NCBI GenBank assembly: GCA_030141605.1
Contig: JAQGDQ010000107.1
Location: 186,001 to 250,000, forward strand
DNA: 64,000 nt
Direction: 5' to 3'
From: Tubiluchus corallicola
Taxonomy: Eukaryota > Animalia > Priapulida
Notes under the pieces: generated by a model
Databases searched by the model: none
What the model was told of the DNA's origin: nothing
What the model saw: the letters and a program-made list of their open reading frames with translations, nothing else
Program-made: the position numbers and the translations under genes
Shown: positions 1,317 to 32,666 of the stretch, in pieces
Position numbering within the stretch: the stretch's first letter is position 1
How the letters are laid out: every line of letters begins with the position of its first letter

Positions 1317-1399
1317 GATAAAACACCGCTTCGGACTTATGGGTCATGTTTAGTCTATTTTATACGTGTTATTGTGAAAACAAAATGGTATATCTGCTT

Positions 1400-1591
<192 letters not shown>

Positions 1592-5335: not shown

Positions 5336-5560
<225 letters not shown>

Positions 5561-7061: not shown

Positions 7062-7212
<151 letters not shown>

Positions 7213-7881: not shown

Positions 7882-7987
<106 letters not shown>

Positions 7988-8269: not shown

Positions 8270-8625
8270 AAAACTTGTAAATATAAACACCCATTTAAAA
8301 AAAGTCATTTGAAACAGGTTTAGATAACACTGCGTGAAGTTTGTAAAAATAATCTAGCCATTTGTAACATATTCTTTGCTAACTAAGCTAAAGTATAAAT
8401 TACTTTATCTTGCTAATAAAATCTGTAATGCGTTTCTAGTGAATCAGCGATACACACTGGAGTGACGTTTTACCAGTTGGCGCGAACATTTTAAATTATT
8501 TTCTAGTTTTTCTCTTTTCTAGTTACATAATAAATGTTTCAAACAGGTAAGTGTAATGCTAAGTTATAAAACTTTATGTGGAAAGTTCTTTGAGATATAC
8601 TTCAAAATTCCCCTTTCTTCCCCTT
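8270..8625. mobile_element. Dispersed repeat, copy of the inverted-repeat family at 26230-26630 and 30425-31409
   Basis: Same orientation as the 31019-31409 arm; reverse complement aligns by eye with 26281-26530 and 30500-30750. Confidence 0.7.
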
Positions 8626-9835: not shown

Positions 9836-10240
9836 TTGAAATCGATGTGTTTCAAAGGCGAAATTACAGAAACATTTTGGGTATTAGATGGCCAAAGAAA
9901 ATTTCAAACAAAGATCTATATGAAAAAAATAAAAGAAGAACCTTGGACAAGAAAAATAAAAAGACGCCGTTTAAGATGGATTGGGCATATGTTTAGACTA
10001 CCTGATGATATTCCAGTGAAGATAGCTCTTCAACAAGCCATAGAACCAGCTAAAAAACCTGCAGGGGACAAATGTTAACATATTTAGATTTTGCACAGAA
10101 AGATTTAAACACTTCAGCATTGATCCTTAGAAATAAATGCACTTGGGGCACTGCGGCGAGCAGGGAGACCTGGCATAGAGAGGTGAGCAGAATCATGTCC
10201 CTGGACGTGTGATTCATTGGATGATGGTGGTGGTGGATGC
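9836..10240 (+). mobile_element. Frameshifted 3' remnant of an RTE-like LINE ORF
   Basis: EIDVFQRRNYRNILGIRWPKKISNKDLYEK / IKRRRLRWIGHMFRLPDDIPVKIAL across two frames, matching the RTE C-terminal R.RW.GH..R motif. Confidence 0.75.
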
Positions 10241-11269
10241 TTTGTAGGCTTCTTGGCATCGTTAAAAAGAAAATTTGTCATTTTGCTTAGTTTAATAGAT
10301 CTGATCTCATAAAGTAATTATTGACAATCCTTGTGTTTTAATACTACAATAAATGCCACAAACAAACAATAAACAAATGCAATAAACAAAGCTTAATTAA
10401 AAATCACTATTTAGGACATTTACTGCATGACAAATAAAATAAATATTTCCACAAAGAACAGAGGATTAGTAAGCTAAACATTTAAAAAAAGGTTAGTAAA
10501 TGTATAGTCCAATGGGCAAATATTCCAAGTCAAAATGGCATTAGTATTAAGAAAATAAATATAAGGCCATATGCATACCCATAATGTATACCTCAGTTGC
10601 AATTATTATTCTTTTTAACAGAAATTTAACAGAAATTTAGCGACATTGAACGTGAAACGAAACGTCGATGAATTTCTGTTTACAAGACTAATTATTTACA
10701 AAGGAAAAATGACTGAAAATGGCGCAGTAATCGTGCCAAGTTTAATTTCTCTTAAATGTCCAGTAATTCTTGATCTACCGCTGAATAATCAACAAACGCT
10801 TAAATTATGAATTAATTTATAATTTAAAATTTCAACTCAATCAATGTGTATAGAAATGCCGCCATTGCCGCAAAATTTAAATAGCAATTTTTCCCGCTGT
10901 TCCCACAAAAAGAAGGGAAATTTGTGGAAACACAGGGTCACTGGAGGGATATACCAGCAAACTTTGTCTGCAACAAGATGGCGGCAGATAAACGAACAGG
11001 AGTCAAAAGTGTGTTCTTTGTAAGCTCTATGTATTTATCTGCAAATTCGTTTATTTTATTTATCAAATTTATTTACAGTAATTTGCAGTGGTCGTCTTTC
11101 TATGTGTGCTGATTCAAAGGTTTTGGGTTCGACTCCCACTTGTGTTGGGAATTTACTAGTCATGTTCCACATGAACAGATCTTTCTGGTCGTGTTTCTAG
11201 GACTACTCATTTTTAATTCAATACCTGATCTTAGTCAGTTTGTTAATATGTAAAGTTTAAAGCAAATTC

Positions 11270-11800
11270 GGACCCAATCTTAAACTGTAGGTCAAAATAG
11301 TCTATTCTTTAAAATATTGAAAGGAAACGTACTAGAGTTATTACAACACAAACACAATTTCACATTTTTGATACTAGTTCTTCGCTGTTACACGCATTTC
11401 GCCATTCGCTAGTTAGAGAGGCACTAGCGCCTGCATTTTAGAAACGCATTGCACAAAAACAGGTGCTGTACCTCTCAGTTCAGATGTGTTAGTTTGTGAC
11501 GAACTACACACGTTCGACAGCTCATGCGTGAGCACAACGGTAAATTTGAAATTCTGAATATCTTACGGTAGTACTGCAGTTCAATTTTCGCTTTCGCCAA
11601 CACGTGCAACACGCTCGTCGAATATTTTTGTTGTTGAAAATTATGTTAGTTTGTGTCTGTCATCAATAGTTGGGATCTAAGTTTTTAATCTATTATTTAA
11701 TTATCAGAAACGCTTTTGCAGTATTAATTGTGTTAAAATGTACACGTTTTATCAGACTTGAAAATGGGGTGGTATATGAAAAATCATCCTGTCTTCCTTT
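11270..11800. repeat. Dispersed repeat, also at about 59215-59780
   Basis: Long shared blocks, e.g. CTCAGTTCAGATGTGTTAGTTTGTGACGAACTACACACGTTCGA. Confidence 0.8.
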
Positions 11801-11959
11801 AAGTTTAAAGTTCTGTTTTGTTATTTGTACGTGTAGTTTAGCTTTTCCATTGTCTCATTTGCCTCTAACAGTGTATGTTTTTTAAAACATTCACTGATTA
11901 GGTTTCTTAATTATTTGCTACGATTATTTGTTATGGTAAATAAAGATCTTACTTACTTG

Positions 11960-12530
11960 CTATGGGAGGAGGGAAGAGGGCTCTACCGTAACCATCTACC
12001 CCTGCGCTTCCTCAGTTGCATATATAAGACCAGCCCTCCTTCTCCTTCTCTTCCTTCATTTTTTGTTCTTTTTCTTGTTCTTCCACCTGTTCTTCTTCAT
12101 ATATTTCGCTCAAAGATGTCTAGCAATTTTCACTTCTAGAAGGAGTGTCTAAATACTGTCAGTTTGCAGCGATAAAATTATATTATAATATTCTAATGTC
12201 AATTTTGGGTAAAAACATATGAAGTTACTGTGCAAAGATTGTATTACAATCAAAATCCAAGGTGATTTTGAACGTCTATTGTCAGTGTAGTCGTTTGGGA
12301 TTTATATCGCAAAATGTCAAATATAAATCATTTAACGTTAAGAAATTATGATAGAAATTTGCCGTAATAGGTTGCGTTGAAATGATTATTGAACACTGAA
12401 ATCCGAGTTCCCTGGGAGGCCGCCTAGGAGAAATTTTTTCGGCAATCACGTAAGACAATAACCGCAAAATCCTATATTGCTTAAAACCGTATAGGGCATT
12501 AGCGGGGCAGGTTAGTCCTGCCCTTCTTAG
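11960..12530 (+). mobile_element. Possible Helitron-like non-autonomous element
   Basis: Ends in the hairpin GGGCAGG-TTAGT-CCTGCCC followed by a CTTAG (CTAG-like) terminus; 5' boundary uncertain. Confidence 0.3.
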
Positions 12531-12659
12531 GAAATGTTCGCTTTAAGCACAGTTTGATTCCCTTAAACTAAGTGATATGATATTTGTAATAAGTGTCATA
12601 AATTTCAGTCGTTATCTTAACCACTGCCACATCGCCATCTTTATCGTTAGCAGCATTAC

Positions 12660-13210
<551 letters not shown>

Positions 13211-13517
13211 GATTATGACTATGAATTTATTTCCACACATCAAAGAATACAACATCAGACACATCTATAAATTTATAATAAAATAATTTGAGTAGTACGA
13301 GGTTATGAATTTATTTTAATAAAATACAGCTTTTAGGAGAAACCATAACAGCAATCGCAATGATATTATGAATAATAGAGGGATAGCGGCATTCATTGGC
13401 AAAGTGTGATTCTTAAGCAGAACTAAGGCTACAATAACATGTATTATGTAAATCACTATGTTATCATCATCATCATCATCATCATCATTATCATCGTCGT
13501 CGTCGTCATCATCATCG

Positions 13518-13566
<49 letters not shown>

Positions 13567-16500
13567 TATTATTATATCACCATCGTCGTCATCATCGTAA
13601 TTATCACTGTTACCCTAGTTTCATTATAATCATTGCAGCAAACGCCACTGCCATCACTAAATTCCGCTTCACTGTGTCCTTTGCTGCTGTCAGTAAAAAC
13701 GTCACCACAATGACTAAAACGTGTTGCAGGTAATTTGGTTTTACATATAAGATGTCTAACAAGTTTGGATTTTCAACATCTATCTACGAATGATGCACAC
13801 TAGGAGGTATTTTATTAGAATTATGTAAAATTTTTGAATTTCGAACGAAACGTCACTTAACTGCGCATTCTAATACATTTTTGGACTTAGATTTTTTTTG
13901 GCTTATGTAGACTTGTTGTAGTGTCACTCAAGAATAATGACAACAAAGGCCGTGCCAATGACAGCTGATGATTACTGTCACCAGGCGGCGTTTCAATGAA
14001 GATTTGCGCAAATCAGCGGCAAAAGCAGAATTGTTATAGGGACAGAATTTCAGAAAACTGTGACATAAAATGACGTCAAAATTTATAAAAAGGCAGTTGA
14101 AATAGAATTTTAGAAACAACAGCAACACCAACAATAACAGCTACTTCATCAGCCTGTCTGGTACATCACCCAGATTGAATATTTCTAGTACAAAAGCGAG
14201 TTAGACATTGGCAATACGTTCGTACTTAATCACAAATTCCAGAATATTACAGCAACAGCAACAACGGCAGTAACAGCAAAAAACAACAGGAACAGGAGCA
14301 GCAAAAGTAGGGCAGCAGCAGCAGCAGCAGCAGCAGCAACTGCTGTGCCAACATCAACAACCATGAAGTCAACATTTAATACTATACATAGATAACAATG
14401 ATCATTCATCTTTACATTTGAATCTGACTTTCACTCAAATTACAGACTTGCAGTATAATTATTTTCCCCATTGTGCTTCTGTGAGAATGACCTTTATTAT
14501 GATTTTTAGTTCTACTACTGACAATTCTTTTAATCACTGCCATGCCTCAGGTGTCATGATTAAACGATGACTCGCTCGCTTTACCATACAATCAAGTCTG
14601 TCACAGAAACGTGATCTTTTACACAAGTGTGGTAATTTAAAATAATCAGTGCGTTCAGATGAAAGTATTAAACTCCAGGTGTAGGGTTGATGAAAGGAGA
14701 GTGAAACAAAGCGTTATAATATTGTGAACATCGTGTAGTAAATCGTACTGAATGCAGCTGACATTCTAGCTGCCGTTGGTGTTAAAAATTTAAACAGCAA
14801 AATTAAAAATGGTGGCTGAATAAGGTCATGGGGCGTTAGTGGCAATGATAGTGTTGTTGGCGTTGATGTTTGTGTTAGTTGCGGTGCCACATGGTAGTGA
14901 ATATTGATTATGATGGTGGTGATGACAACGATGGCGACGACGACGACGACGATGATAATTTTAGTATATATTGGAACTTACAGTGTGACTACAACCGACG
15001 AGTATTGACAACTGACTGCTTTGTGGACGTTTGGTTAAGCGACGTATCGACTCTTCAGCTAGTTTTTTTTTGTTTTGCAAAATACGGTCACGTCTCTGAA
15101 TTCAAATGAGATCTGCATCAGAAGCGTCTGAGCTTCACAAAAATGATAATTCTATTTCTATGCTTGTCTACAGTACACACACACACACAGAGGAGCAAAA
15201 ACTTTAATGGTTCCCAGTTTATTTCACTTACACGTGCCTAGAAGTATATACAGCTCAGTTGCTCATTGTCCCAATGGTTGACTATATTTTTACAGCAAAC
15301 TGTAAATTTAAATTTACAAATCCCTGATGCATGATGGCATTAGTAGAAATAATCTACGAGTGTCGTAGCACTCTCCAGTGGGGACCTACTTTAGTTGGTT
15401 AACCTGTACGTTTATAAAACATATTTAGATTTAGATTAATTTATTCATCAATTTAGCACAATACAAAAGTTATACAATTACAAATTAACATTGCATTGCA
15501 GTGCTATGAGCGTAGTAGAAGAAATTAACTTATGAGCTAAGCTCAACATGGACAAGACTTAATTAATGACCTAAACAATAACAAACAAAGACGATATTAT
15601 ATTATATATATATGATATTATAAAATATCATTTAATAGTATTTTATAATAATAACTATTAGCACCTTTCAGTATAACCTGCCAAGATTACTTCTATTGCA
15701 CTTTTAAGTATGTGTACAATACTTTTCTGACCTACGTTATAATAGGTCTTTCTTTTATGGATGACTTTGATGTGCGCAATGATTACTACCCTGTTATTCT
15801 TACCTTTAGGTTTCATTATAGCTATGCATACACGGTGTATAAAGCGTTAGTTTTAGTATAATAGCTATTGCAAGTCATCACAATAGCTATTGTTGCTATA
15901 AATTTTTGGAGTACCAAAAAACAGTGGAAAAGCCTGTTTATGTTAAACAGCATAACTTAAGCAAAACAAAACAGCTCAGTTCAACAAAAAGCTAATATTG
16001 ACCAAATACCATTCTGTCGTGGAATCAACTCGTCTTGATTTTTATTGGAAAATTTTCGTTTCACAATAATTTCTGGCGTATGAAGAGACTTGATTTCGTT
16101 ACCATTCCTCACGCAATTTAATTTTCTTCAGGTAATTCAGTTTTCTGTCAAACAGTATCCACCAATCTTGCTGAATTTAGAATCGAGCTTCTTTTGTCCA
16201 CGCTCTTTGGTTGTAGCTTGAAGCCAACGAAGATCCTGAGTAATTTATTGCTACTTTTAGAAACTTGAAATCCTGCTTAAATTACACGAAAATTACAAAA
16301 CTGACTTTTTAGACACCTTGTATAAAATTTTGCAGTGACCCATTTATGTGGGCGAATTTTGCGTTTTAAATAGCTACTATAAAAAGCTATTACATATAGC
16401 TCAGCACTGCTAGTTCAGCTATTTTTGGCAAAACGCAAATTTTTTTGCTTCTTATTACTGCATTCGCTCGCATAGGTTTTATAAAGCAGGCAAGAAAGCA

Positions 16501-16759
16501 ATAAACTGAAACATAGCATGAACAAATGAACCGGGGGCTTAGTGATAATTTAGTTACAACGAGCAACCAGCCAAGAGGGCACGTAAGTTGTATAAGATCG
16601 TAAGTTAACTGACTGTATTTAAGGCTTTGAAGTCAATCCATCACCTGACAAACACCTACTTACCGTACAGGGGCATCTGTTCCCAATTATTTTTGTGCTC
16701 CGTACTGCGAATGCCTTACATCTTGCGATCACCAATAGAGACATCCTTTGCTGCTTATT

Positions 16760-17010
16760 AGTATCATATATTTAATTTTGGTGTAATTAGCTGATAATTT
16801 GTATGCTTCTATCCAGTTAGCTCTCTGTTATTGTGATGTTGGAACTGAAATGAATTAGTGGATGGATTTGATTAAGGGGTCTGTCATCAGCAAAAAGATA
16901 TGTACTGAAATCAGTAATAAGAAAGAGATCATTGATGTAGCTAAGAAAAAGCAGTTGTCCTACAGTGGATCCTTGTGGTACACCTCCGTTTGTATCCTGC
17001 GTATTAAGTG
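16760..17010 (-). mobile_element. Degenerate CR1/L2-type RT fragment
   Basis: Minus strand reads GGVPQGSTVGQLLFLSYINDLFLITDFSTYLFADD, then after a frameshift WIEAYKLSANYTKIKYMI. Confidence 0.8.
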
Positions 17011-19860
17011 TGATATACTTTAAAATGTGGTTATTTTACATCTTTTTAAAATTGTGATGGTGCAAAAACACACAGCCTGCACCATAGTTAAATATCTGTC
17101 ACAAAGCCCCTACAAGTTTTTCAGAACATGCTACAATTTTTCGCATTTTAATCTAGATGTTGTGGCTCGCACCTGTTTCGTGCTTATGTGCTTTCTATTG
17201 CTTTGGTTTGCATTCCTTTTTTCTACCCTCGGTTTTTATTGCTGTTCGACGTGCGTTTGTGGATGGCTCCAGATTTTTTTTATTTTACCTGGACAATGAG
17301 ATTATGGTTGTACACCGTCTGCAAGTTACCGCTTTCTGCTGCAATGGGTACGTTTGGTTGTTATTTATACATGTATAGCACTGGCACTGCATTATATATT
17401 ACGAATAATAAGCATGCCTTTACCACATTTTTAAATTAGTGCATGAAAATGCTTCTCATACTTTGTAGCAGCGGCTATTGCATGCAGGATCCAGCACTAA
17501 TGTATACGTATTCCACAAAATACGTATGTTACATTTTTAATTACAGTATTATCTTATATTACGATTGCAGATGGCATTTTTGAAACAGCTAATTACAAGC
17601 TAAAATGTATTGCCCAAAATAAATATTACTGAGCGCGTTACTTCGGCGCTCGCTTAAGTGATTCCAAGGGGATATTTATCCTAGATTGCCGCTGGCGGCT
17701 GTATTCGCTTTCTATAGGAGTTGTCTTCGTTCTTGTTCGTCAATCTATCGACTTACGACAAGTTCAAACCAAAAATATCTCGGCATGATGTGAACTGTGC
17801 AACTTTACCCCTTTACCAATATGTGTAGTTTGAGAGCACCATAAATGATGTTGCTTTCTGTAGTGTCTAAACGTCTGAAAGGCTCCGATGACGATGACGA
17901 TGATGATGACAATGACGACAACAACGTGACCATAGCAACAACTACAAAAACGAAAAAATAGAACACTGATCGTGGTGAACATAAATTCCTAAGGCCCACT
18001 TCACACTGAGGACGCAAGGAAAATGACGCTTTCAAAAACACAATTGTAACAATGTTGGCTACATCATGATACTTAGACTAAAAGTAAATATATTATGAAA
18101 AAGCTTTATAAGTATAACTAAGTACACATATTGACGTTTCTTTTAGGCAAAAATAATATTTATGTTGTACATTTTTAAATAGGCTACCATTCCTAAAAAA
18201 AGTGAATTCAGTTTAAAACGTTCATAGGCCAATGTTTTTGTAAAAATCAAAAATTTGAACGTTTTACTCAGAATGCAGAAAATTAAACAAAACCTGGTTT
18301 TGGTTTCGTTTTTTCTTAAACTACGGGGTTAACTTGCCACACAAATGGTCCACTCGTGCTGCGATTGCTATCCGTACTGTTTTCACGAATCCCAAACTTT
18401 TTTATCTGATTTCCACATGAGACGTCTGTATGAAATGCGCCATAAAAAACAATGTGTTCCATGAGGAATGCCCCAAGGAATGCTCCTCACTGTAAGGTGG
18501 GCCAAAGTTTCTCAGTTCTACCGAGTTCACTTTTAAATCAACGAAAATTACGCGATGACAGCAAGAACAGTACCTGTGTACCTGAAGACACCTGGTTCAA
18601 AGCCAGCTGAGACCTTCTTGCCTTTTGCCATTTTACCAAGAGTATTTTATTTTTTATACCGTTCTGCACCTTGTGACTCATTACGAAGTTAACCTGCTAG
18701 GATGAGGTTGGACTGAATCGGCTGGGGCTGCATCTCACTGCACTCAAATCGTCTAGTCTTCGAACGTAAACATCCACAGTTCGTATGGCCAATGAAACCG
18801 CCAAGAGAGAGTATGGAACACAAGCGGTCACAAGTGATTGATTCATCTGCCTGGCGTGGCTTAGCCTTGCTCGCGAAGTACACGCCGTGGCCACTCGGCT
18901 GTTCTGCTTCCCTCATCTCAGAACAACCAACTCAGTGAAAATCACCGGTTGTTTCAAGAAAAATATTTGGACGACTGGGAATCACTGACCGCAGCATCAC
19001 CATTCTGTGGACTCACTCTGTAATTGTGTCGTCACACCGCGTAAACTTTTCCTCATAATTTATTTCCGCTGCTTCAGACTGATAAGTGAATTAGAAAAGG
19101 CACACCGCTGAAGCATCAAACAAGCGTAATGGATTTCGATCTGCACTTTTCAACAGACGTAAGAAACGCTGAAGTTTACTAAATCTCGAATAAAGGAAAT
19201 GCTCGGGGCTGCTGTGACCATAACAATACATGTTATTAGTGACAGTTTGTGTAAGAAAGTTGCTGCCTGCTAAAGCTAAGCATATTTCATCATTCGTCTT
19301 TACCTTTAGGCTTATTTTCTTTAAAGAAATGACAAGTCACTTAGCATGTTGGGTTTATTTTACTGCTATCACCTAAATGTAGAAAAATATAAGAAGTAAA
19401 ATTGCAAAAATTGTCTATAAAGCATAAAGTTAATTTTTACTTTCGCTTTATTTGAAATTTTCCGGCGCGGTGGTTGCCACCGTTCACTTGAAATTGTGGC
19501 GTAACTGGTGGACTTCGTGACTTTTCGTAAGCGCATCGTAAGTTTCCGTAAGCACGCGCTGCATAAACTAATTCAAGCTTCTGCAGCATACCTAATGTTC
19601 GAACAAAAATATCAAAAAATTAGCTGTATAATTTTTTATGAAAACTTACAGTTTTGACGGCAAATAAGAGTGGGCTGCTTTTGATGAACGATGTCATTAG
19701 GGGAAGAACAGGCCTTAAAAATAGCAGCGCCCAACCGTGAAATGATCGCGATTTTAAGGAGATTTTACTAATTACACGAAGCACTTATAGCAATTTTATT
19801 ACTAAATCTTTCTAACATTTTTGAAATAAGCCCAACTTCCTAGAGGGCCTTGCTTTTCTT

Positions 19861-19861
<1 letters not shown>

Positions 19862-19934
<73 letters not shown>

Positions 19935-19971
19935 TATAATAATAATAATAATAGTAATAATAATAGTAATA

Positions 19972-20053
<82 letters not shown>
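19862..20053. repeat. (TAA)n microsatellite
   Basis: Read directly from the sequence. Confidence 0.95.
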
Positions 20054-20054
<1 letters not shown>

Positions 20055-21993
20055 CTTTATTTAAAGATGGTTTTAAACTCAATAGACAACACTAGGCGTT
20101 TATCAGCGGCTGTAAATAACAACTACAGCTACATTACAGAATCGTTAATCCACCCAGGCAGGTGCCACGTAAAAAGTGTTTGTATTACCCCACCGTAGTA
20201 TCGAACCCGCAACCTCCCAACAGAAAATACGCTTGTTGTCCAATAAACTAGCTATGAGTGTTAAAGTTAAAACGACAAAAGCTTTTTTGACTGAGAAATT
20301 GTCAGAATTGTTCATATTTATGCTACTTATTCCATTAACCAACTGGGCATGCATTAACATACAATCATTGTGACTTTATAACATAATCAGTTGTATAGTT
20401 TTTACATCAGGTATAAGTTGGATACAAAAGTGTTTACTCAAGTTCTACTGCAAAAAGAGTTGTTATGCCTTTACATTTTGTATTATACCAAATAAACAGT
20501 TATCATCACTATGTGTAGCTGATTCATTTACTAACTGGCTACTACGACATCCGCAAATGATTATTTGCCATAATTTTTTCCTACTTTTCTCAGAATGGGC
20601 ACTTCTGGTTTTGACATCTACGGTATGCGTGATGGTTTTTCGCTTAATAAACACGTAATTTTCGTCACATCGTACTAACATAATGAAGATAAGTCATTAT
20701 CTCTAGCTGAACCGAGCACTTATCGTGCTGCAATGACGACCTAATTAATGGCTTCATTTTGAAGCTGCGAGAAATTAAACAGACCTCCAACGTTCAACGT
20801 CATATTAATTATTATGCGTTTCAGAACAACTATCGCATGCATGTCACGTGTCTGCATGTAAACTGCATGTAGGTGCAGTGGACTGCATGTCACCAACACA
20901 TTCTTGCAGTTCTAAGCGCCCGCAAATACAATTAATTTAAACACAAAAGCATGATTAACTGTGTTTAATTTTTTATTTGTGAGCAGGGAATTTACATGCC
21001 ATGATTTTTGTAAACTTGATGATGATAAGTCTGCAATTGTTAAATTGTGTGTTGTATTGCACAAAACGGAATTATTATGCCTTATAATAATAATAAGTGT
21101 TATTAGGTTTTAACAATTGAGAATTATTATAATACTGATAATTAACTGCTAGTGTTGGTCTGATTAATTGGTATAATTACTAATACAGAAAACTGCTAAT
21201 AATTAAATTATGCTAATTAATTAATATAATTAGTTTATTATATAGCAATGGTAATGTAGCAGTTATAGCAGCATTAGCTATAGTAATAGCAGTAGCTTGT
21301 ACAGTCAGTTAATAAGCCTTTTCGCAGTTCCAGCGATTGATGATGATCGTGGAAAGGTCAAAGGTTAAATGTACCAGACAACGCATTTGTGTTCACTTGA
21401 CCACACCTCGCAGTCCATGCTATTGGATTAGTAATTAATTCTAATTCATTTTCTCTTGTTCCCAAACAAGATCCCGCACAGACTATTGCACAGTTAAGTG
21501 AAGTCCACGAAAACACTGACGTTACTGAACTGGGCTTTACTTTACCCACATGTCACGTGACGATTGTAGATACGACGGGTTGCTGTGGTACACTTAACCT
21601 ACGACCTACAACAACTGCGCGTGCGCACAACGAAACTGTGAAAGCCTTATTATTGTGTAACTGACTGTTACAGTCGTAATGTAGTTGCCCAGTGCTTATA
21701 ATTACGACTAAAATAAATTTTACATTACATCGCATTGTGACAATTGCTTTTTGTTTTACATTTTTTTAAAACACATTAATTATTGTGAAGGTGCCTAACT
21801 GACTGATGTGATCAAAAACTATAAGCAACGACAATAGCTAATTAATTATTGTGGGTTTAACATTGTTTAGCATTGTTTAACATTAATTATGCTGATGTAG
21901 TGTTATAATTTATGTATAATTATGCATAATCGTTTTATGCATAATGATATTTTTGTTAGTTTATTATTATAACATGAGTGTTTTGTATTATAG

Positions 21994-22093
21994 GTTATCA
22001 GTTCGGCATGATACCATGCAAGTTGGTGTCATGGCTTCAGGGTTTGTCGGTGGCGACATCTGTGTATACTTTGGTGGCAATTTCTCTTGATAG
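21994..22093 (+). CDS. SIFaR: SIFamide/NPFF-type GPCR, cassette A, ECL1-TM3 exon (100 nt)
   Basis: ttatag|GT...GAT AG|gtaag; encodes YQFGMIPCKLVSWLQGLSVATSVYTLVAISLDR with the TM3 Cys and the DR of DRY; phase 1 in, phase 2 out. Confidence 0.9.
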
Positions 22094-22387
22094 GTAAGCC
22101 TGCAAAAGTGGCACTGACATTTGTAAATGTAGTCTTGCAAAGTAAGTTGCCGTCTTACAGGATTGAAAATAGTTTTATTGAATGAAGTCATCAGCAACAT
22201 CCAACTTAATGGTCAGACATTTTTTGTTAACTTTTTCAGTTTAGTCAGTGTTTGCTAACTGTAGTTACCTTCTATCTATTTCCTAGCCTGTCTCCGTTTT
22301 GTTAAAACCCCGCTATATCTGACATATGTTCAACTCCAATCAGCCAACAAGTTTCATATAACTTTGTCTTTATTGTTATTTTTCCAG

Positions 22388-23123
22388 ATACTTTGCCATT
22401 TGCCACCCAATGAAATTTCAGATGACATTGAGGACAGCTAGAAAAGCTTGTGCTGCCATCTGGATTTGCGCCGGGGCGTTTTTTATTCCATGGTTTGCTT
22501 TTTTCCAAATAACTGATAATCCGTCAGCAGATCGCCAAGTAATCATACGCTACTGCATGGAACAATGGCCGAACGGGTACGAACACGCGATGAAGTGGAA
22601 TTTGTTGTTCAATGTCTTCATCCTCTGCTATGTTGCCCCACTTTTAACAATCAGTTTTTGTTACATGAACATTTTCTTGGCTGTGTGGAAAAGAGATTTA
22701 ATCGGCGATGCTCGAGAGTATGAGAATATTGTCCGTCGCCAACGGATCCAAGTCATCAAAATGCTTCTGGTGGTAGTCTTGATTTTCGCCATTTCTTGGC
22801 TACCTTTGTACGCCATCTTCATCGGCTATTACTTCAACAGTTTTGATGACGTGGCACTAAGTTACGTCAATCACGCTGTTCCCGTCCTTCAGTGGGTTTC
22901 CACTGCAAATAGTTGTATTAATCCGTGCATCTATGCCTACTTAAACCGAAAATACAGGCAAGGGTTCAAAGCCATAGTGATGAGTGGGTCTTGTTGTAAG
23001 AAGCTGAAGTATCCTGGAGACAGGATAGGACACTATACCACATCTGCAGTAAATAGTCAGAGGATCGTTTCTGAACAGACCCATGTAGATTACTGTATGG
23101 CGACTTTGAAAGACGATGTGTGA
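22388..23123 (+). CDS. SIFaR: SIFamide/NPFF-type GPCR, cassette A, terminal exon TM4-TM7 and C-tail
   Basis: ttccag|A TAC completes DRY; YFAICHPM, ECL2 YCMEQWP, KMLLVVVLIFAISWLPLY, ANSCINPCIY, NRKYRQGF, SCC motifs typical of SIFamide receptors; AATAAA at 23697. Confidence 0.9.
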
Positions 23124-24951
23124 AGAAAATGAAGAGGAGTTTCTGAAAGCAGCTCCACATGTCGCTAGTGTCATTGATGGTTGTGCATGATGGCGTCTAC
23201 TTGGTACTTTTCTTACATGTGACGGAGCTGCTTTTTTGTTACCAGCAACAATAACAGAAGAGAAATTTACAAGAGAACGTTTTTCTGCACAATGTGCGGG
23301 CTAAGTGTGATGTGTTCGCTTTGTAACTCGAATGGTGACTAGTTTCCAAGATTACCAATACATCTGTTAAATTATTCCCAAATAGTGTACTTGTCATAAT
23401 CCTATTTGCAGATACTGGAATGTGAGCCGAATTTTGTGATGGTCTCTTGGTCATGAAGTGAATCACAGACTATTTGTATAAAACACGCTATATTACATTC
23501 ACAAGTTCAAAGATGTTATTGCACCAATTTTAAAGCAAATGAAACTTGTGCTATTGTCTTCACGATTGGAAAATTTTGTAGCGACAAGCATGTGACCAAA
23601 TATTGTCTTCTGATCTTGCCTAGGTTGAAGTTAGTTGACAATGAAAATGATTGTACACATTAGTGTAATGAGTATGGAATATAGAAGTGTACTTGTAATA
23701 AATGAACTGATGGATTGAGCAGGCTTGTTTAGTAGCCTGTTTAGTTAACACTTGGCAGTATGAGCAATCTTTACGATGTTGTAGCTGCCTGTTATATTAC
23801 ACTATCTAATATAATGTGATGTTACCTTTGTGCAATATTTGAATGTTGTTATTAAGTTATCAGGTATCAGGGAAGATATAAATCACAATGGAGTTTGAAG
23901 CAATCTGAAAAATTATATTTTCAAGACCAGTGTATTTTTTGAGTTGCCCTCACTGTCTGATTTAGGTCTATGTTGATGTTAGTGGTATCATATGTTGTCA
24001 CTGTTTTTCATTGATTATGCTTAACGATATAATTTTTAGTCTGCTCTACGGGATGTGACCATGAGATAGTAAGAAATATTTCATGTGCATTCTCTATTCT
24101 AAAGTTGCAATACTTTCCAGCTTCTTTTGACTGAATCAGCTCTGCAGTTTGTCCGGATGTTGTACTTGGTTTTGGAATTGGCAACAAATGAATTAAAAAC
24201 CATTACTACATGGCTCTGTATCATTGTAGTTAGATCCTACACAAGACAGTAATAATATAGCTTGCAAAAAGTATTAAATCAAGTATGAACTAAACTTTCG
24301 TCATTATGAGTATCTTGGTCAATTGACTGCTGATATTATAAAATTAGGTTATAAAGTTATAAAATTATAAAGTTATTACCGTCTGCCATTTTTGGTTTTC
24401 TATCTTGCTGCAAATAGTGTCATCATTTTTTGATACACTTTCTTTACACTTAGTTTAAAATAAGGTATTGACATTTAAGGACGCATCATAAAGTTAAGTT
24501 GCCATTCCTAGAGACGTAGTTTTCTTACTAGGTGCCAATGATTGGAGAAACCGACAGAACGGTAGCTGATGTCATAGTTACTGCTTAACAGGTTTATTTC
24601 CCCAGTTTATTTCTTCTATGACAGCTCGTATAATTGTACCTTGCGATTGACTGTTCATTTATAAGTCACGCAGGACTGATACTGCTGAAAAGTCAACATC
24701 ACTAGAAATCACTTACATAAGTACCAGTATTTTTGTGGTACATTTAAGATCTATACTGTTTTATCATTAATGTGTCACATTTTTCTGGATTGGATTATTT
24801 TAACTGGCGAATCCTGACGTCATTGTTTATGAAGTGAAAGTTCATATTTGTGAAATATAAAAGTGAAACAGTATTAATCTCATATCTGTTATTATTGTTT
24901 TGTTTTCTCAGAAGTTAAGCGTGATTTTCTAAATTTTACACACGCTAGTGG

Positions 24952-25434
24952 TTACATGCTGCACCAGCACAAATGGTATATCTTTGGACTCTCTGATAAA
25001 TAAATTTGCTCAGCTGGTTGACTAGACAGGTTGGCAGTCATGGGGATTCTCAGGTATTTATACGTATCACTGACTCCCAGCATTGGAATAGGAGTCTGGC
25101 AGATCTTCCATGTGTGCTCTATTAACACTTTCATAGCCTTTCGCTGGTATGCCTTGACTAGCTTCATGGCTTTGCACTTGTTGGCGTTCAGTGTCATACC
25201 TCGTTTCGTGAAGAAGCCATTGGCTGTCTCCAACAAAACTCCCATGCCATGTTTCGAGGCTGAGATTAGGACTAGGTCATCGGTAAAACCAACTATAGCC
25301 ACTTGGTATTCGTCGATCCCATAGCCAAATCGAGAACCGACTTTCGAGATCAGTTCATCGATTACCAGGTTGAAAAGTAGATGGTTAGCTGATCTACTAA
25401 CCGATTGGCAGAGTCGATGATTTTCTGGTGACAC
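24952..25434 (-). mobile_element. R2-like (REL-group) non-LTR retrotransposon RT fragment
   Basis: LLFNLVIDEL...VGFTDDLVL...RGMTLNANKC...DTYKYL; F(A/T)DD core resembles R2/R4 RTs; isolated fragment. Confidence 0.7.
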
Positions 25435-26229
25435 AGACTGACTTTCTGCTTGAACATTTAATTTTTTTCTTATCTATGACATATGCACAAGATTTTTGCC
25501 CCAAAGAATGGGAAGCCATTTATTCTTTCTTAATTCATCATTGTTTGCTGACAAAAGTTACAAAAAAGGACTTGTAGTGCGTCACTGGCGTTAACGTAAC
25601 AAAACTACTCAAGTTTCAATTCTTTGATAGAAGCGCCATCTTTTGTTCAATCTTAATTAATTTCAAATAATACACGGTGTTAATAGGAGGTGCAGGACAA
25701 ACACAGGTAAACAGTGAAACATTTTAGGCCGCAAACATTTGTAACTGCAGTAAGAAAACTCATCTCATGCATAAAATCATCGTAACTTTATCCATTATTA
25801 AATGCAAATTAATACAAAATAAAAAACAGTATATTTCTAGGCGAAAAGGGCGCTGTATTAACCTCAGATAGTATTGAGTCAGTCGGTTAGTCACAACAAT
25901 AATGAAATATGTAAATTATTTGTGTAGCGTTAAGTGAAAGTCATAACGCAGGGCGAATCTAGATCGATTTAGCTGACAAACAGAATTCAGGATGATGCCA
26001 CGACCTGAACTGTTTTGTGACTGACGAAATGAAGCGTGTTTTATTAGCAAATTATTATTGTACAGAATACAGTTCGTAAACATTATAGTAAAAAACATTC
26101 TTTGCTATAACATTACCATGTTAATCACATCATATCATATCATGAAATAAAATTACCAATGCGGTCACCGAAAACCTCATAATAAATTTTTTAACGAGAA
26201 TCAAAACGGTTTTTAAAGTACAGTATGTC

Positions 26230-26630
26230 TCTAGGAACTTTCCATGATATGAAGTTACATTACTTCTGTATGCATCATTCTTATCTGTTTGAAAAACAAA
26301 TGTAACTAGACAAGAAATTTCTTAATAATTTTAAATGCTCGCGACAACTAGTGGAATGGCACTGCATCACCATCCCAGCGTGCACCACTGATTCACCAAA
26401 AACGTATTTTTAATCTTATTGATAATGTAAAGCAATTTATACTTTTGCTTAGTTAGCGAGGAGCGTGTTACAAATGCTCTGATTATTTTTTCGAACTTTA
26501 TGCGATGTTATCTAAATTTGTTTCAAACGACTGACATTACAATGACTGCGCCTAACGCGGGAGTTTAAATTTACGAGCTCTATACAGCGCTACTGTTAAC
26601 GTAAGCCCTGTATGCAATAAGACAGTATGT
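26230..26630. mobile_element. Dispersed repeat copy, same orientation as the 30425-30860 arm
   Basis: Shared blocks such as AAAACGTATTTTTAAT and GCGGGAGTTTAAATTTAC. Confidence 0.75.
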
Positions 26631-26964
26631 AAGCAATATGACCTTTCAAGACGATGTTTAAGCTTTATTTATGAAGAGTGTTCTCTTGTACTTTAATTTA
26701 CAATCAGCATGTAAGTGATATAAAATTTCAAGACGATTTTTTAAACTTTTGTTATGAAAAGTGTTTTCTTGCATTAGCTACTTTCAAATTTGAATAAAAT
26801 ATATCTGTCGTCTTTGCATCACTGGCGCTTTCCTCGGCAGAAAACCACAAAACCTGAATACAGACAAAACAATTAGTAATGATAAATAAAAGATATAATT
26901 AGTACCTTACTAATACAGTAATAGATCTAAACTCTAGTTTGCTAGCACAAGCTTTCTTTTAAAG

Positions 26965-27064
26965 GTTATCCGTTCTCGGATGGGGCGTGCAAAACAGTTG
27001 TCTGGCTTCAAGCTGTTTCCGTTTCCTCTTCCGTGAACACACTGGCTACCATATCTGTAGAGAG
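26965..27064 (+). CDS. SIFaR: SIFamide/NPFF-type GPCR, cassette B, ECL1-TM3 exon (100 nt)
   Basis: tttaaag|GT...GAG AG|gtaag; encodes YPFSDGACKTVVWLQAVSVSSSVNTLATISVER; same length and phases as 21994-22093. Confidence 0.88.
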
Positions 27065-27417
27065 GTAAGCAAATACACACGAGCAAGGGAGGCTTGCTTT
27101 TGAAATCTGGTCTTATTAATCAGTAAGTGTTTAATATAATGAATAAGGAATAAGTCAGTCATGTTTGCTCTTTACCAACGATTAAATAAGTAAGAAAATT
27201 AGTTTGGTGACTGTCTTTTGGGAGACGATGCATGGTGGTTTAATGAATCAATTATTGATGTTATATTAAAGACGACGAAATCTCTAACAAACATGCAAAG
27301 ATTTTTAAAGCTAGTATAACACAGTACAGTATAAAACCTAATGCTGCTTAGTGAGCATTTTCTAGTTGAAACAGCCGTGAATCAGCTGAGTTCTCAAAAC
27401 TCATTAATTGTCTTTAA

Positions 27418-28080
27418 CAGTACCAGATGGGCTGCAGCCCAGCGGCCTTCGCCAGCTGAGGGGCCTTCAGAAATTAAGTGAAAGTAAATTACTGTGAAAA
27501 GTTACTAGAGCATGGGCTTTATGGGCTGCATCCCAGGGGCCTTTGCCAGTTGAGGGGCCTCCAGAGATTCTGAAAGTAAATTACTGTGAAAAGTTACTAG
27601 AGCATGGGCTTTATGGGCTGCAGCCCAGGGGCCTTTGCCAGTTGAGGGGCCTCCAGAAATTAAGTGAAAGTAAATTACTGTGAAAAGTTGCTAGAGAATG
27701 CATTAATATACTGTGTAATAATACACTGAAATTGTTTTCTTGTTCATTATTTGAACTCATTGATACTGCCAAATACACTAGCAATCTGATTACAATGACA
27801 CAATTTTAGAGGAATTGAGGTCACCTCCTGTGACAAAATTACAATTTATTGTAATTCGTATGTATTCCATGTTTTAATTTTGTAAATATCAGAATATTTC
27901 TTCTCTTTTTGTTGTGTTAAACTTTCACCCATCTACGTGGGCCTAATGTTGGCATTATTTTGTAGAATTTGAATAAGCTGATTTGAAGAATCCAACATTC
28001 ACGCTTTTTTTAATTGTCACTGGGGCCGGAGCCTCATGTATCTGTAACCCAGGGGCCTACAAAATTAAAATCCGGCCCTG
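27418..28080. mobile_element. hAT-type MITE in the GPCR intron, with an internal about 95-bp triplication (27430-27700)
   Basis: Starts CAG, ends ATCCGGCCCTG; flanks GTCTTTAA / GTCTTGAA (8-bp TSD, 1 mismatch). Confidence 0.65.
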
Positions 28081-28158
28081 GTCTTGAAAAGGATTTCTCA
28101 CTAGAGACACCTGTTGGCAATTATTGTATTGCAAAAATAATGAGATTTATATTTCCAG

Positions 28159-28825
28159 ATACATTTCTATTGTTTATCCGATGAAGTATGAGATGACGAC
28201 GAAGGCAGCGGGACGATTCATTGCTGTTATATGGATATATTCCTGCCTGACCTTCATTCCTTGGTTGCTGTATTACGATGCCGTAGATATAATATTCAAG
28301 GGTCAATTACTGTCAGTTTGTGGCGAATTCGGATGGCACGATCCCGCTGCAGCAAAATGGTACTTCTTGTGCGTTGTAGCTTTGCAGTGCTACATTGTTC
28401 CCTTAGCTGTCATAAGTGTTTGCTATTTCTTGATATTTCTGCACGTCTTACGACGTCCCGTGATTGGTGAAACACGTGACTTGGAAACGCTGGTTCGAAA
28501 ACAGAAGCTCAAACTTGCAAAAATGGTCCTAGTCGTTGTGATGGTGTTCGCCTTCAGTTGGCTGCCACTGTACTTGACGTTTGCGTTTGTTTATTTTGGA
28601 GTTGTCTCCGATAACAATGCGCAGCTGGCACTGCTCATACCCATATGCCAATGGATATCCACGTCGAATAGTGGGATTGATCCGGTCCTGTACGGATTTC
28701 TGAACCGGAAGTTCCGGTTGGGTTTCATTGCTGTCCTGAAAAGCAGGAGCTGCTGCGGCGAATTGCGATATCCACACGACAGGAACACTAAATACTACAA
28801 TGGCAGATTAACCAATAGCACTCAG
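28159..28825 (+). CDS. SIFaR: SIFamide/NPFF-type GPCR, cassette B, TM4-TM7 exon
   Basis: ttccag|A TAC completes ERY; KMVLVVVMVFAFSWLPLY, SNSGIDPVLY, NRKFRLGFIAVLKSRSCCGELRY; donor CAG|gtattg at 28825 (read-through stop at 28858). Confidence 0.9.
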
Positions 28826-28950
28826 GTATTGTTAGTCTTAAAATATGCTGTTATTTAATGCATAAGAACTAGGGAAAAATTGAGGAGAGCAATACCCGCT
28901 GTGAACTGCGCTGTTAACTTTGCACGATTAGCACTGCCATCACAGCAGTG

Positions 28951-29000
<50 letters not shown>

Positions 29001-29577
29001 CTTTATTGCATAAGTTCTACACATTTACAGGTGTGATAAAATACGTGAAAATACTATATGTGTAACCACTCAATGCCTGTTGTAGGCAATAGTGTTAAAC
29101 TACTATTACAAGAGTTAATTTTTTAAATTGTGAATAAAAGACATAAAATTTACATAGGTAAAATTAAAATTCAATTACAAAATATAACTTCTCAACGCAT
29201 ACGCACAAAAAAATTAAAAATTACTTTTAACATAATATGCATTTATTATACTAAATCTACTGATGCAAAAATCTACAGGCAGTACAGCTTTTGGTTGGTC
29301 GGTATTCTGATGACTAAGGTTACCTCCGTAACTTACTAATTATTATGCTTGTCTTTACATTTATTTTTGAGTTGACTTGCGCATGCGTGCACTCAAATCT
29401 AACAAACTGATGAATACTAATTTCATTGGCAGCACCTGTATGGAAGGAAAAACATGTGCCACATTTTTTACAAATGATGGAAACCTGTCTAATATCTTGT
29501 CTTTTGGCGTTTGCTAATTAGGTCAACCTGCTAGTTACCTTTTTCATCGTCCAGTGTATTTTTTTTATTCTGAAAAA

Positions 29578-29835
29578 TCTCTCTGTGGCGTAATGGTTAG
29601 CAACCCGGATTGTAGGTTATGAGTTCGAATCCCGATGAAGGGATAATTTATACCAGCTTTCGGGCGTTCATAGAATTGATCTTGTACTATGTGGTACAAT
29701 GTAGACTTTAATTCCTCATTCATATACAACTAGTAGCATACGTGCCGTCAAGTAGGTCAAGTGCCTTTGTGGTGTAGCGGCTAGTATAGCTGCCTGGACA
29801 GCATAAGTCCTAGGTTCGAGTCCTAGCGGTGGTTT
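29578..29835 (+). pseudogene. Two adjacent decayed tRNA-like / SINE heads (about 29578-29640 and 29762-29835)
   Basis: A-box GTGGCGTAATGGTTAG / GTGGTGTAGCGGCTAG and B-box GTTCGAATCCC / GGTTCGAGTCC, without an intact cloverleaf. Confidence 0.55.
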
Positions 29836-30424
29836 GAAATTTTTCACACTTTTTAATATAATATTCTTTCGTGCGTTCAAATGATTATTATAAATTGTTG
29901 TGACTGGACGGGATCTTGCTTATTATCGAAGACAGCCCTCTAAGATGGACGCGATTGTACCTCTCTTCAGCAGGGAAAAGAGCCGGGGAAATATAGCAGA
30001 AGAAGCCGCAGAACCAATTTTCATATTGATTATCCATTCATTTACTGCTCAGGATCAGCTGTTGCTTAACTTCGGGCGCTCGATCAGCTAATTGCCTTCG
30101 CTTGCTTTTTTTACTAAATTATCTAGATGACTAGTTTAGTACTACCATTTATAGACGAAAAATTTTAATCGGAAGAAAGCTTTTTCTTAAAAAGTATTTA
30201 TGAAAGTTTAAGTGAAGCGGTGCCAAATGTCAGAATATCCAGGGAGATGTAAAAGCGCTTCCTCAATTTCACCAGCAGTTTGGCCCGCCTCTGCCCTAGT
30301 TTTCAAATGGTGCAACCAGGACTCTAAGTTTGGTTCTTGACTCGTTTGGCTGAATTCCTTCCATTAGTTCCATGTGTGCTAAGCGTGTGGTGCACATTGA
30401 TTTCCTTGAAACAGCAAAAAATGT

Positions 30425-31409
30425 TGAAGGGGAAGAAAAAACATTTTTAAAGAATGTTCACAAAAACTTTCCACACAAACTTATATTACTTAGCTATACG
30501 CTTACCTGCTTGAGGGACTTATGTAACTAGAAAAGAAATTTTTTAGCAATTTAAAATGTTTGCTCCAACTGGTAAATCGTCAGTGTTTCACCAGCCCAGT
30601 ATGCACCACTAAGTTATCAAAAACGTATTTTTAATTTTATTGGTAATGTAAAGTAATTAAGTCTTTTGTTTAGTAACAGAAGAGTGCGCTGCGAATTCTC
30701 TGATGGTTTTTTCAAACTTCACACAATGTCACCTAAAGTTGTTTCAAACAATCTACCGTCAAAATGGCTGCGCCTAACAGTCATCGCGGGAGTTTAAATT
30801 TACATGTTTTATACAGTATTATTGCTAATATAACATCTGTGTGCAATAAGGCAGTATAGGCTGCAAAACATTGTCTACCGAAAGAACTTAATCAAGCGGT
30901 GTGGTGCTTAAAGCACAAGAGAACCCTTCATAAACATAAAGCTTGAAAAATTCGTTTTGAAATTTTGTTTCGCTTACATGCTGCCTTTTTGCATGCAGGA
31001 CTTCAATCGGCAGTCACGCTGTATAAAACCTGTAAATTTAAACTCCCGCGATGACCGTTAGACGCAGCCATTTTCACGACAGGTCATTTGAAACAAGTTT
31101 AGATAACATTTTGTAAAGTTTGAAAAAATAATCAGAGCATTCGTAGCGCGCAAGTCACTAACTAAATAAAATTTAAAATTACTATGTCTTGTCAATAAGA
31201 TTAAAAATACGTTTTTTTGTTAGTGAGTGGTGCACCCTGTAGGGTGAGTCAGCTACATTTTACCAATTGGTGAAAACATTTTAAATAATTAATAATTTTC
31301 TTTTCTAGTTACATAAATCTCTCTAGCAGGTAAGCGAAAATCTAAGTAATATAGATTTGCACGGAAAGTCTTTTGAGATATAATTTAACATTGCCTTTTC
31401 TTCCCTTGA
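30425..31409. mobile_element. Foldback/MITE-like element with about 390-bp diverged inverted arms (30425-30816, 31019-31409)
   Basis: CATCGCGGGAGTTTAAATTTACA versus TGTAAATTTAAACTCCCGCGATG, with complementarity continuing outward. Confidence 0.75.
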
Positions 31410-31756
31410 TTTACGTTTGGTGCATGACGTCATGTAATGGCGACTTCGGAATAGTATTGCGGGAAATTTAAAATGAAAACAAATCAAAATTACTTTCAGT
31501 GCGAGTAAGATATAGGCATAAAATTGCTATAAAGTAATATAATTTTTTAAGGCGATTTTTCTGAAACCTGCTTCAGGTACACCTTTTCTTGTCCTTTAAA
31601 ACGTAAGAAAAACATTTACTTAAGTAAAGATAGGAAAATTCGTGTTATTAACTTATTGTTAAAAATTGTTGTTATTAACTCGTTATTTTTTAACTAACGG
31701 TTCTTGACTGTTGCTAAATAACTAACTCGTGTGCGTATTTATTTTATTTATTATAG

Positions 31757-31838
31757 GTGTGTTCTACAGGTACTTTTGTAGCACGTTCACCAGGTCACAT
31801 GTCTGAAACAAGCTTCAGTGTTTCGAAAAAAATTGAAG
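31757..31838 (+). CDS. SIFaR: Probable C-tail exon of GPCR cassette B
   Basis: ttatag|GTG, phase 0 matches the 28825 donor; VCSTGTFVARSPGHMSETSFSVSKKIE is Ser/Thr-rich; donor G|gtttcg is weak. Confidence 0.5.
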
Positions 31839-32577
31839 GTTTCGTATGGGAATGTTTTTATTTTTGTGTAGCAATAATAACGCAATTCAGTGCTAATTAA
31901 TGTCCTTCTTGCATGCACTGAAAAGTAATTAGAGCTAAGATAAAACTATGTAAATAACAGAGAGTAATTATCACTAATCAAATTAACAATTTGATAGGAA
32001 GGAAAATTTGAAAAGATTTAAAACCGATACTGTATCACAGCTCAATCATGCGGTTATGAGACTATTTGTTTTTGACCTGAAGGCCCATAGTTCGATCGTT
32101 GGTAGAGAGAATTTTTATGCGTTTTTTCTGGTTTTAATGCTTTAAGTTTTTTTGTTTTTTCAACTTTAAACGCGAGAATACGTTTTAGTAAAAGCGCTAC
32201 ACAAAAGTGTGGGTGAAGCCTGTGCAAAAGTAAAATTTGCTTTTTGGATTCAAATTTTCTTCAAAAATAAAATTTGGATTCAATTTTTTTCAAAATCAGC
32301 ATGATATTATAAAAGCATGTCTGACGAGCACAAAAACGCAAATGCCTACTTTTATAAATTTCAATTAAATTGAACGAATAGATTATAGAAGGAACTTTTA
32401 CGGCCATTCCAAAAACACTTATTGTTGCATTAATTATTACAAACTAGAGTTTAGAAAACAAAATTTAGTTTAACAGATTATTTTTGGCAATTTGAAAATG
32501 GCGTATCAGGAATGTGTAATTTTTAAAAATAATAATTTAAGTTTTATAAAACATAATTTTGTTTCTTTTGTGTTTAG

Positions 32578-32666
32578 CAAAAAAGGACAGTGGTGAAGTT
32601 CATGTGCCTGACGTGGATAATAGAGGAAACATTGGGAGGAAGTACAGTTTTCCGATTGAACAATAG
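32578..32666 (+). CDS. SIFaR: Probable terminal exon of GPCR cassette B
   Basis: Strong acceptor ttttgtgtttag|CA, phase 1 compatible; AKKDSGEVHVPDVDNRGNIGRKYSFPIEQ*; AATAAA at 32853. Confidence 0.45.

What the first reader, a model, noticed from the sequence alone, without database searches (positions are those of the whole stretch)
21994..32666. SIFamide-type receptor built from duplicated TM3-TM7 cassettes that appear to share one upstream TM1-TM2 exon
Seen: two tandem cassettes, each a 100-nt phase 1-2 TM3 exon plus a large TM4-TM7 exon. Both are free of stops yet strongly diverged (17 of 33 residues identical in the TM3 exon). I found no TM1-TM2 coding sequence (GN..V, TNYFIVNLA..D-like) in the 3.8 kb between the cassettes or in the 22 kb upstream. 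Inference: intact frames despite deep divergence imply selection, and a 5-TM remnant would be unlikely to function alone, so both cassettes are probably spliced alternatively to a common exon upstream of the window. One promoter and N-terminus would then give two receptors differing in most of the ligand pocket and G-protein face, a constant-5'/variable-3' design that is unusual for neuropeptide GPCRs. More cassettes may lie upstream.
Basis: partly seen in the sequence, partly recalled or inferred. Interest (0 to 1): 0.8.

Follow-up and report, generated by a model that had tools for sequence, protein, structure and literature searches.

The report
Peptide receptor with two swappable bodies
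This animal, likely a priapulid worm, carries two intact, very different copies of the last five membrane helices of a SIFamide-type neuropeptide receptor with no first two helices between them, so both are likely spliced onto one shared front end further upstream, a design already known from the insect moulting-hormone receptor but with a larger swapped part.

Summary
Observation confirmed. Two tandem cassettes, each a 100-nt TM3 exon plus a TM4-TM7 exon, are open and 43% identical (TM3 exon 17 of 33). A TM1-TM2 profile that scores intact relatives at 51-88 bits finds nothing in the 64 kb (best 7.8). Synonymous sites between the cassettes are saturated, and a diverged sample keeps both cassettes' exons without gaps, so both look selected. 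B's TM3 exon has no start codon and needs an upstream coding exon. Best reading (0.65): one gene with a shared TM1-TM2 exon more than 22 kb upstream and alternative 3' cassettes. A third, A-TM3/B-body form is also in frame. No RNA junction and no upstream exon were seen. The design is not new: insect ETHR-A/B swap end-of-TM4 to the C-terminus and OAMB swaps its last exon. New here are the earlier branch point (five of seven helices), the two-exon cassettes and the family. Deep pocket positions are identical in A and B; outer ones differ. New variant of a known kind; interest 0.45.

The parts
1..21993 (+). Inferred part of a long intron between the unseen TM1-TM2 exon and cassette A; microsatellites and repeats, no recognised gene
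   Evidence: 0 of 81 stop-free frames of 55 aa or more (low-complexity ones left out) reach a Pfam cut-off; best + strand TM1-2 profile score 4.9 bits
21994..22093 (+). Cassette A, ECL1-TM3 exon (100 nt, phase 1 to 2), ends in the DR of DRY
   Evidence: diverged sample X5 aligns over 21978-22102 only, 6 differences in 125 nt, the 3 listed ones synonymous
22388..23123 (+). Cassette A, ICL2-TM7 and C-tail exon with stop
   Evidence: one DNA contig of X1 spans 21616-25095
23697..23702 (+). First AATAAA after the stop of A; candidate polyadenylation signal that B transcripts would have to pass (inferred)
   Evidence: use not shown
23124..26964 (+). Gap between cassettes: inferred 3' UTR of A and intron for B; no TM1-TM2 exon found
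   Evidence: best + strand scores 4.4 (TM1-2), 6.5 (TM1) and 2.0 (TM2) bits
24952..25473 (-). Reverse-transcriptase fragment inside the gap
   Evidence: Pfam RVT_1 E 3.9e-09; raised read depth
26222..26771 (.). High-copy repeat, with copies at 8303-8625 and 30430-31405; holds the only ATG-started phase-1 mini-exon candidate with a GTRAG donor in the gap (26671-26710, 13 codons)
26965..27064 (+). Cassette B, ECL1-TM3 exon (100 nt, phase 1 to 2), ends in the ER of ERY; no Met, in-frame stop just upstream in the intron
   Evidence: X3 (another study) contig 26809-27167 with 0 differences
28159..28858 (+). Cassette B, ICL2-TM7 and C-tail exon with in-frame stop; possible internal donor after 28825
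   Evidence: X5 pieces 28387-28590 (17 of 204 different) and 28613-28826 (21 of 214), no gaps
32578..32666 (+).
   Evidence: no RNA support

Best explanation
Cassettes A and B are two intact TM3-TM7 halves of a SIFamide/NPFF-type receptor with no TM1-TM2 exon between them, and they are likely alternative 3' ends of one gene whose promoter, N-terminus and TM1-TM2 exon lie more than 22 kb upstream. Shown: exon borders, phases, open frames, absence of TM1-TM2 in the window, conservation. Inferred: the shared exon ends in phase 1 and is spliced to TM3 exon A or TM3 exon B; isoform A ends at a poly(A) site in the gap, and isoform B needs read-through and skipping of both A exons. Computed from the frames: A3+A4, B3+B4 and the mixed A3+B4 are open, while taking both TM3 exons or neither shifts the frame into an early stop, which would enforce one TM3 exon per message. 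Predicted: the shared TM2 supplies the 2.61/2.64 contacts and both bodies keep the same deep pocket for an amidated aromatic C-terminus, so the isoforms would bind the same class of peptide but differ in selectivity (ECL2, ECL3, tops of TM6/TM7) and coupling (ICL2, ICL3, tail), probably in different neurons as with ETHR-A/B.
For: TM1-2 profile built without priapulid sequences: intact N-termini 51-88 bits, single helices 37-43, four of five 17-22 aa pieces 13-22 bits, best native + strand hit in the gap 4.4. B3 has no Met and an in-frame stop 7 codons upstream, yet keeps C3.25, Q3.32, V3.36 and ERY. A vs B: pS 0.88, pN 0.37 over 235 codons; 8 of 37 fourfold sites identical. X5: B exon 38 of 418 nt different with no gaps, against 40 of 274 in the two longest unique non-coding pieces, Fisher p 0.027. 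5 of 5 listed changed codons in A are synonymous. Single-copy depth over both cassettes in X2 (166-186, against 165-205 in other unique bins). No recognised gene in the 22 kb upstream. Precedents ETHR and OAMB.
Against: The shared exon was never seen and no spliced read or contig joins anything to either TM3 exon. No listed contig spans the whole stretch; the listed pieces do not bridge 25095-25348 or 26387-26809, both repeats, and X1/X2 may be the assembly's own source. The two named Priapulus caudatus paralogues have different TM2 sequences (9 of 22 identical) on different contigs (156 and 73 kb), so this family has also grown by whole-gene duplication. One 18-aa test piece (start of TM1) scored only 7.3 bits, within background, so very small or diverged exons can be missed. 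Positions of the differences in B were not listed, so dN/dS for B alone is not measured. No pair with a shared TM1-2 and a body this divergent was found among 209 usable fetched receptors.
Confidence: 0.65

Rival explanations
1. Two full genes: B has its own TM1-TM2 exon, which lies upstream of the window (interleaved genes or several 5' exons) rather than in the gap.
For: The P. caudatus paralogues P0003 and P0016 each carry their own TM2, and B groups weakly with P0016 (83/84). The window does not reach any TM1-TM2 exon, so their number is unknown.
Against: Needs an interleaved layout that a plain tandem duplication does not give; the messages would still have to skip cassette A. P0016's TM2 could itself be the shared exon of an orthologous locus.
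Confidence: 0.12
2. Assembly fault: sequence holding B's first exon is missing from the gap, or two loci are joined at a repeat.
For: Listed contigs stop at the two repeats in the gap (25095-25348, 26387-26809); none spans the stretch. A 428-nt exact tandem elsewhere in the window shows that odd spots exist.
Against: The window has no N. Depth is even on both sides of each repeat, and short-read contigs are expected to break at high-copy repeats.
Confidence: 0.1
3. B is a stand-alone five-helix receptor, started by a short unrelated first exon from a promoter in the gap, acting alone or as a partner of A.
For: TM3-TM7 forms of CCR5 and CXCR4 are reported to function, and a natural TM3-to-C-terminus variant of BLT1 is listed (PMC3477067 passages). 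One ATG-started phase-1 mini-exon with a GTAAGT donor exists at 26671-26710.
Against: That candidate (1 of 6 GTRAG donors in the gap) sits in a high-copy repeat. NPFFR2 uses TM2 residues T2.61 and D2.64 for ligand contact. The same review says most truncated variants are dominant-negative. A equally lacks TM1-2 nearby.
Confidence: 0.07
4. B is an orphan that lost its first exon recently and has not yet decayed.
For: No RNA holder was listed for B; it has D in place of N in NPxxY. Without selection the frame would survive 0.05 substitutions per site in 21% of simulations.
Against: B is gap-free and more conserved than flanking non-coding DNA in diverged sample X5; frame survival falls to 5% at 0.10 and 2% at 0.15 substitutions per site (2000 runs each); all four splice sites and the receptor motifs are intact.
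Confidence: 0.06

Closest known systems
Ecdysis-triggering hormone receptor ETHR-A/ETHR-B (PMC8175484; section 5 and passages read)
   Same: Neuropeptide class A GPCR; common 5' exons and two alternative 3' exons, each running to its own C-terminus; isoforms differ in ligand sensitivity and are expressed in different neurons; conserved in arthropods.
   Different: ETHR branches at the end of TM4 (about 60% of the protein, one exon). Here the branch is at ECL1: five of seven helices including TM3/DRY, a two-exon cassette, and an extra in-frame mixed form. Different receptor family. ETHR splicing is shown; here it is inferred.
Drosophila octopamine receptor OAMB-K3/OAMB-AS (PMC2650798; passages read)
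   Same: Alternative last exons change the third cytoplasmic loop and all that follows; the isoforms differ in second messengers.
   Different: Amine receptor; smaller swapped part.
Protostome SIFamide receptors and vertebrate NPFFR1/2
   Same: Tree places A and B with Priapulus sequences as sister to arthropod SIFamide receptors; C3.25, Q3.32, V3.36, C45.50, E45.52 and W6.48 are shared with NPFFR2, and Y6.52 and Q7.39 with the three arthropod receptors compared.
   Different: About 39-46% identity; A and B have Y6.59 where those arthropod receptors have K and NPFFR2 has D. No shared-5' cassette layout for this family turned up in the paper searches.
Truncated five-helix GPCRs (PMC3477067; passages read)
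   Same: A TM3-TM7 unit has been reported as a functional or natural form.
   Different: Those are deletion or splice products of one gene copy, not a second conserved copy.

Membership tests
Class A GPCR (7tm_1) | Profile match and motifs D/ERY, CWxP-like, NPxxY, TM3-ECL2 disulphide | tested here: met
   (B has DPxxY)
Class A GPCR (7tm_1) | Seven helices in the mature protein | tested here: inconclusive
   Only TM3-TM7 lie in the window; upstream DNA not available
SIFamide/NPFF-type receptors | Groups with named SIFamide receptors | tested here: met
   Careful tree: clade with Priapulus 99/96, joined to arthropod SIFamide receptors 89/86; its only outgroup was NPFFR. Wider quick tree with tachykinin- and GPR54-type outgroups agrees, CCK-type rows were dropped as too short. 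Top named hits are SIFamide or NPFF receptors
SIFamide/NPFF-type receptors | Activated by a SIFamide-type peptide | not testable with these tools
   Needs a cell assay; position 6.59 differs from arthropod receptors
ETHR-like alternative 3' cassette genes | Two homologous, intact 3' cassettes in tandem with matching phase and own stops | tested here: met
ETHR-like alternative 3' cassette genes | No separate 5' coding exons between the cassettes | tested here: met
   limit: exons under about 18 codons can be missed
ETHR-like alternative 3' cassette genes | Both cassettes spliced to the same 5' exon in transcripts | not testable with these tools
   No RNA holder listed; no junction in the one RNA-guessed run
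ETH receptor orthologue | Sequence orthology and branch point at the end of TM4 | tested here: not met
   Named hits are SIFamide/NPFF receptors; the branch point is before TM3. Works like ETHR, is not ETHR

The most novel reading that the evidence does not exclude
A priapulid SIFamide-type receptor gene is a cassette gene in which one N-terminus/TM1-TM2 is joined to two ancient five-helix bodies, and the two-exon cassettes recombine (A-A, B-B and A-TM3 with B-body) to give three receptors with different peptide selectivity and G-protein faces; more cassettes may lie upstream of the window. It would be a larger helix-bundle swap than in ETHR or OAMB and an independent origin of that design outside arthropods.
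Probability: 0.3. Interest if true: 0.65.

Novelty: new variant of a known kind. Interest (0 to 1): 0.45.

Why it matters
If true, one TM1-TM2 unit folds and signals with two five-helix bodies only 43% alike. That is a natural chimera experiment on where peptide selectivity and G-protein choice reside in the SIFamide/NPFF family. It would extend the ETHR-type design to another receptor family and to a lineage whose neuropeptide signalling was described as barely explored (PMC5818035, passage). In practice, gene predictors would call B a partial gene and miscount receptors.

Tried and rejected
Whole-genome search for the TM1-TM2 exon: no genome held. RNA: no RNA holder listed, which is no evidence on expression. 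The one RNA-guessed run, X6, lays a single non-repeat piece among those listed, 80 nt at 23074-23153 across A's stop (6 differences); it may be DNA, so it is not counted as expression. An X5 contig ends at 28826, one base past the possible donor, but X5 also holds intron sequence, so this is treated as chance. Age of the duplication: the free tree separates A (with P0006, 96/93) from B (with P0016/P0023, 83/84), but A+B as sisters is not rejected (AU p 0.104), so I do not claim that the duplication predates other priapulid lineages. Close orthologues of B: none. tblastn with priapulid N-termini: best E 1.9. Selector or docking elements: no shared repeat near the two TM3 acceptors among the 20 of 31 direct families and 25 of 49 inverted pairs shown; no shuffle control was run, so none is claimed. 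Same layout in other animals: among 209 of 381 fetched proteins that could be split, 1082 of 21736 pairs had TM1-2 at 95% or more, and the lowest downstream identity was 0.55; the 15 rows seen were cross-species CCK receptors. This set is small and biased. Paper searches for a prior description; listings only, except passages of PMC4237046, PMC6585902 and PMC5818035, which did not describe it. Supplements were not read, and most subscription papers are not in the library. No structure prediction was run: the shared exon is unknown.
Full report
Observation. The window is animal DNA (35% G+C, no N). Cassette A is a 100-nt exon at 21994-22093 and an exon at 22388-23123. Cassette B is a 100-nt exon at 26965-27064 and an exon at 28159-28858. 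All four have AG acceptors and both short exons have GTAAGC donors. Spliced, both frames are open; identity is 17 of 33 in the TM3 exon and 112 of 258 overall. Pfam 7tm_1 matches begin at profile position 81-83.

Identity. The best named hit of A was Priapulus caudatus 'NPFF receptor 2-like' at 39%, whose own neighbours are SIFamide receptors. A careful tree of 23 rows puts A and B with two P. caudatus proteins and three unnamed Logan proteins (99/96), sister to arthropod SIFamide receptors (89/86). A quick 72-row tree agrees (SH-aLRT 95; five rows dropped as too short). The animal is therefore likely a priapulid (inference). A pairs with P0006 (96/93) and B weakly with P0016/P0023 (83/84), but forcing A and B together is not rejected (p 0.104).

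Is TM1-TM2 missing? A profile from 51 full-length relatives gave at best 7.8 bits in six frames of the window, while a TM3 profile found the two TM3 exons at 52 and 40 bits. Rebuilt without the priapulid row, it scored five intact N-termini, including tachykinin-, CCK-, GPR54- and QRFP-like receptors, at 51-88 bits. Single priapulid helices scored 37-43 and four of five 17-22 residue pieces 13-22; the fifth scored 7.3, which is background. The best + strand hit in the gap was 4.4 bits and upstream 4.9. So an ordinary or two-part TM1-TM2 exon is excluded in the window, but true micro-exons are not. From recall, not tested: vertebrate NPFF receptors encode TM1-TM2 in one exon followed by a TM3 exon of about 100 nt. 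None of 81 upstream frames reached a Pfam cut-off, which fits a long intron.

Are both cassettes alive? Between A and B, pS is 0.88 and pN 0.37 over 235 codons. Run X5, a diverged sample under the same species label, aligns over A's TM3 exon and its splice sites but not the adjoining intron, with 6 differences in 125 nt. It also aligns over two pieces of B's large exon with 38 differences in 418 nt and no gaps. The two longest unique non-coding pieces differ at 40 of 274, plus 15 gaps (Fisher p 0.027; repeat pieces left out, table truncated). All 5 listed changed codons in A are synonymous; positions in B were not listed. B's TM3 exon has no Met and a stop 7 codons upstream, so its conservation implies an upstream coding exon in phase 1. 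The only ATG-started candidate among 6 GTRAG donors in the gap lies in a high-copy repeat.

Assembly. X2 depth is 166-186 over the large exons and 165-205 in other unique bins; one X1 contig spans 21616-25095; X3, from another study, matches both TM3 exons with 0 differences. Listed contigs break at the two repeats in the gap, and X1/X2 may be the source sample, so a mis-join is not excluded.

Mechanism. Most likely one promoter and one TM1-TM2 exon upstream (inferred). A3+A4, B3+B4 and A3+B4 are open; both TM3 exons together stop at codon 77 and skipping both stops at codon 8. Frame alone would therefore enforce one TM3 exon per message (nonsense-mediated decay is assumed from general knowledge). 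Isoform choice would couple splice-site choice to the use or skipping of a poly(A) site after A (first AATAAA at 23697). In NPFFR2 the peptide amide contacts T2.61, Q3.32 and H7.39, the last Phe sits on V3.36, L5.42 and W6.52, and subtype selectivity maps to 6.58, 7.31 and 7.35 (PMC12069643, passages). A and B are identical at 3.32, 3.36, 5.42, 6.52, 7.39 and 45.52 and differ at 6.58, 7.31, 7.32 and 7.35. ECL2 is 7 of 32 identical, ECL3 2 of 12, ICL2 8 of 17 and ICL3 11 of 27. This predicts the same peptide class with different selectivity and coupling.

Comparison. [quoted passage not shown] OAMB-K3/AS differ by the last exon from the third cytoplasmic loop on (PMC2650798, passages). The design is thus known; this locus would extend it to an earlier branch point, a two-exon cassette and the SIFamide family. 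My searches found no description for this family. Against the reading: the P. caudatus paralogues have distinct TM2 sequences, TM3-TM7 receptors can work (PMC3477067, passages), and no junction was seen. Earlier scan notes on this genome report many other duplicated-exon genes; they are unchecked and are not counted as support.

Verdict. Real feature; shared-exon reading 0.65; new variant of a known kind; interest 0.45.

Noticed in passing
window 41735-41962 and 42695-42982, - strand: Cysteine-rich frames of a Ly6/uPAR (three-finger, quiver-like by recall) gene; weak Pfam UPAR_LY6_2 hit, E 0.0048, below cut-off.
   Followed up: partly
window 38099-38368 and 39226-40002, + strand: A hydrophobic stretch followed by RRR and a donor at 38358, then a 258-codon frame with PPSY and PPY motifs: likely the last exons of a single-pass membrane protein; no Pfam hit. 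Frames near 37042-37331 are cysteine-rich and may belong to it.
   Followed up: partly
window 44859-46268, + strand: 469-codon reverse-transcriptase frame (RVT_1, E 4.4e-21) in a stretch almost free of CpG (3 in 45001-46000).
   Followed up: partly
window 30430-31405: About 1-kb palindromic high-copy element (73% self-complementary), with partial copies at 8303-8625 and 26222-26771; MITE-like.
   Followed up: no
window 59593-60448: Exact tandem duplication of 428 nt (100% identical), possibly an assembly artefact.
   Followed up: no
window 39973-40631 and 27427-27700: Minisatellites: 66 nt x 9.9 just after the 39226 frame, and 92 nt x 2.9 in B's intron.
   Followed up: no
window 23367-23520 and 23948-24082: Non-coding pieces after A's stop that still align in diverged sample X5 (85-87%); possible conserved 3' UTR segments.
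   Followed up: no
proteins P0003, P0016, P0006, P0008, P0023: Three or four SIFamide-receptor lineages in the Priapulus clade, an expansion not found described in the papers searched.
   Followed up: partly
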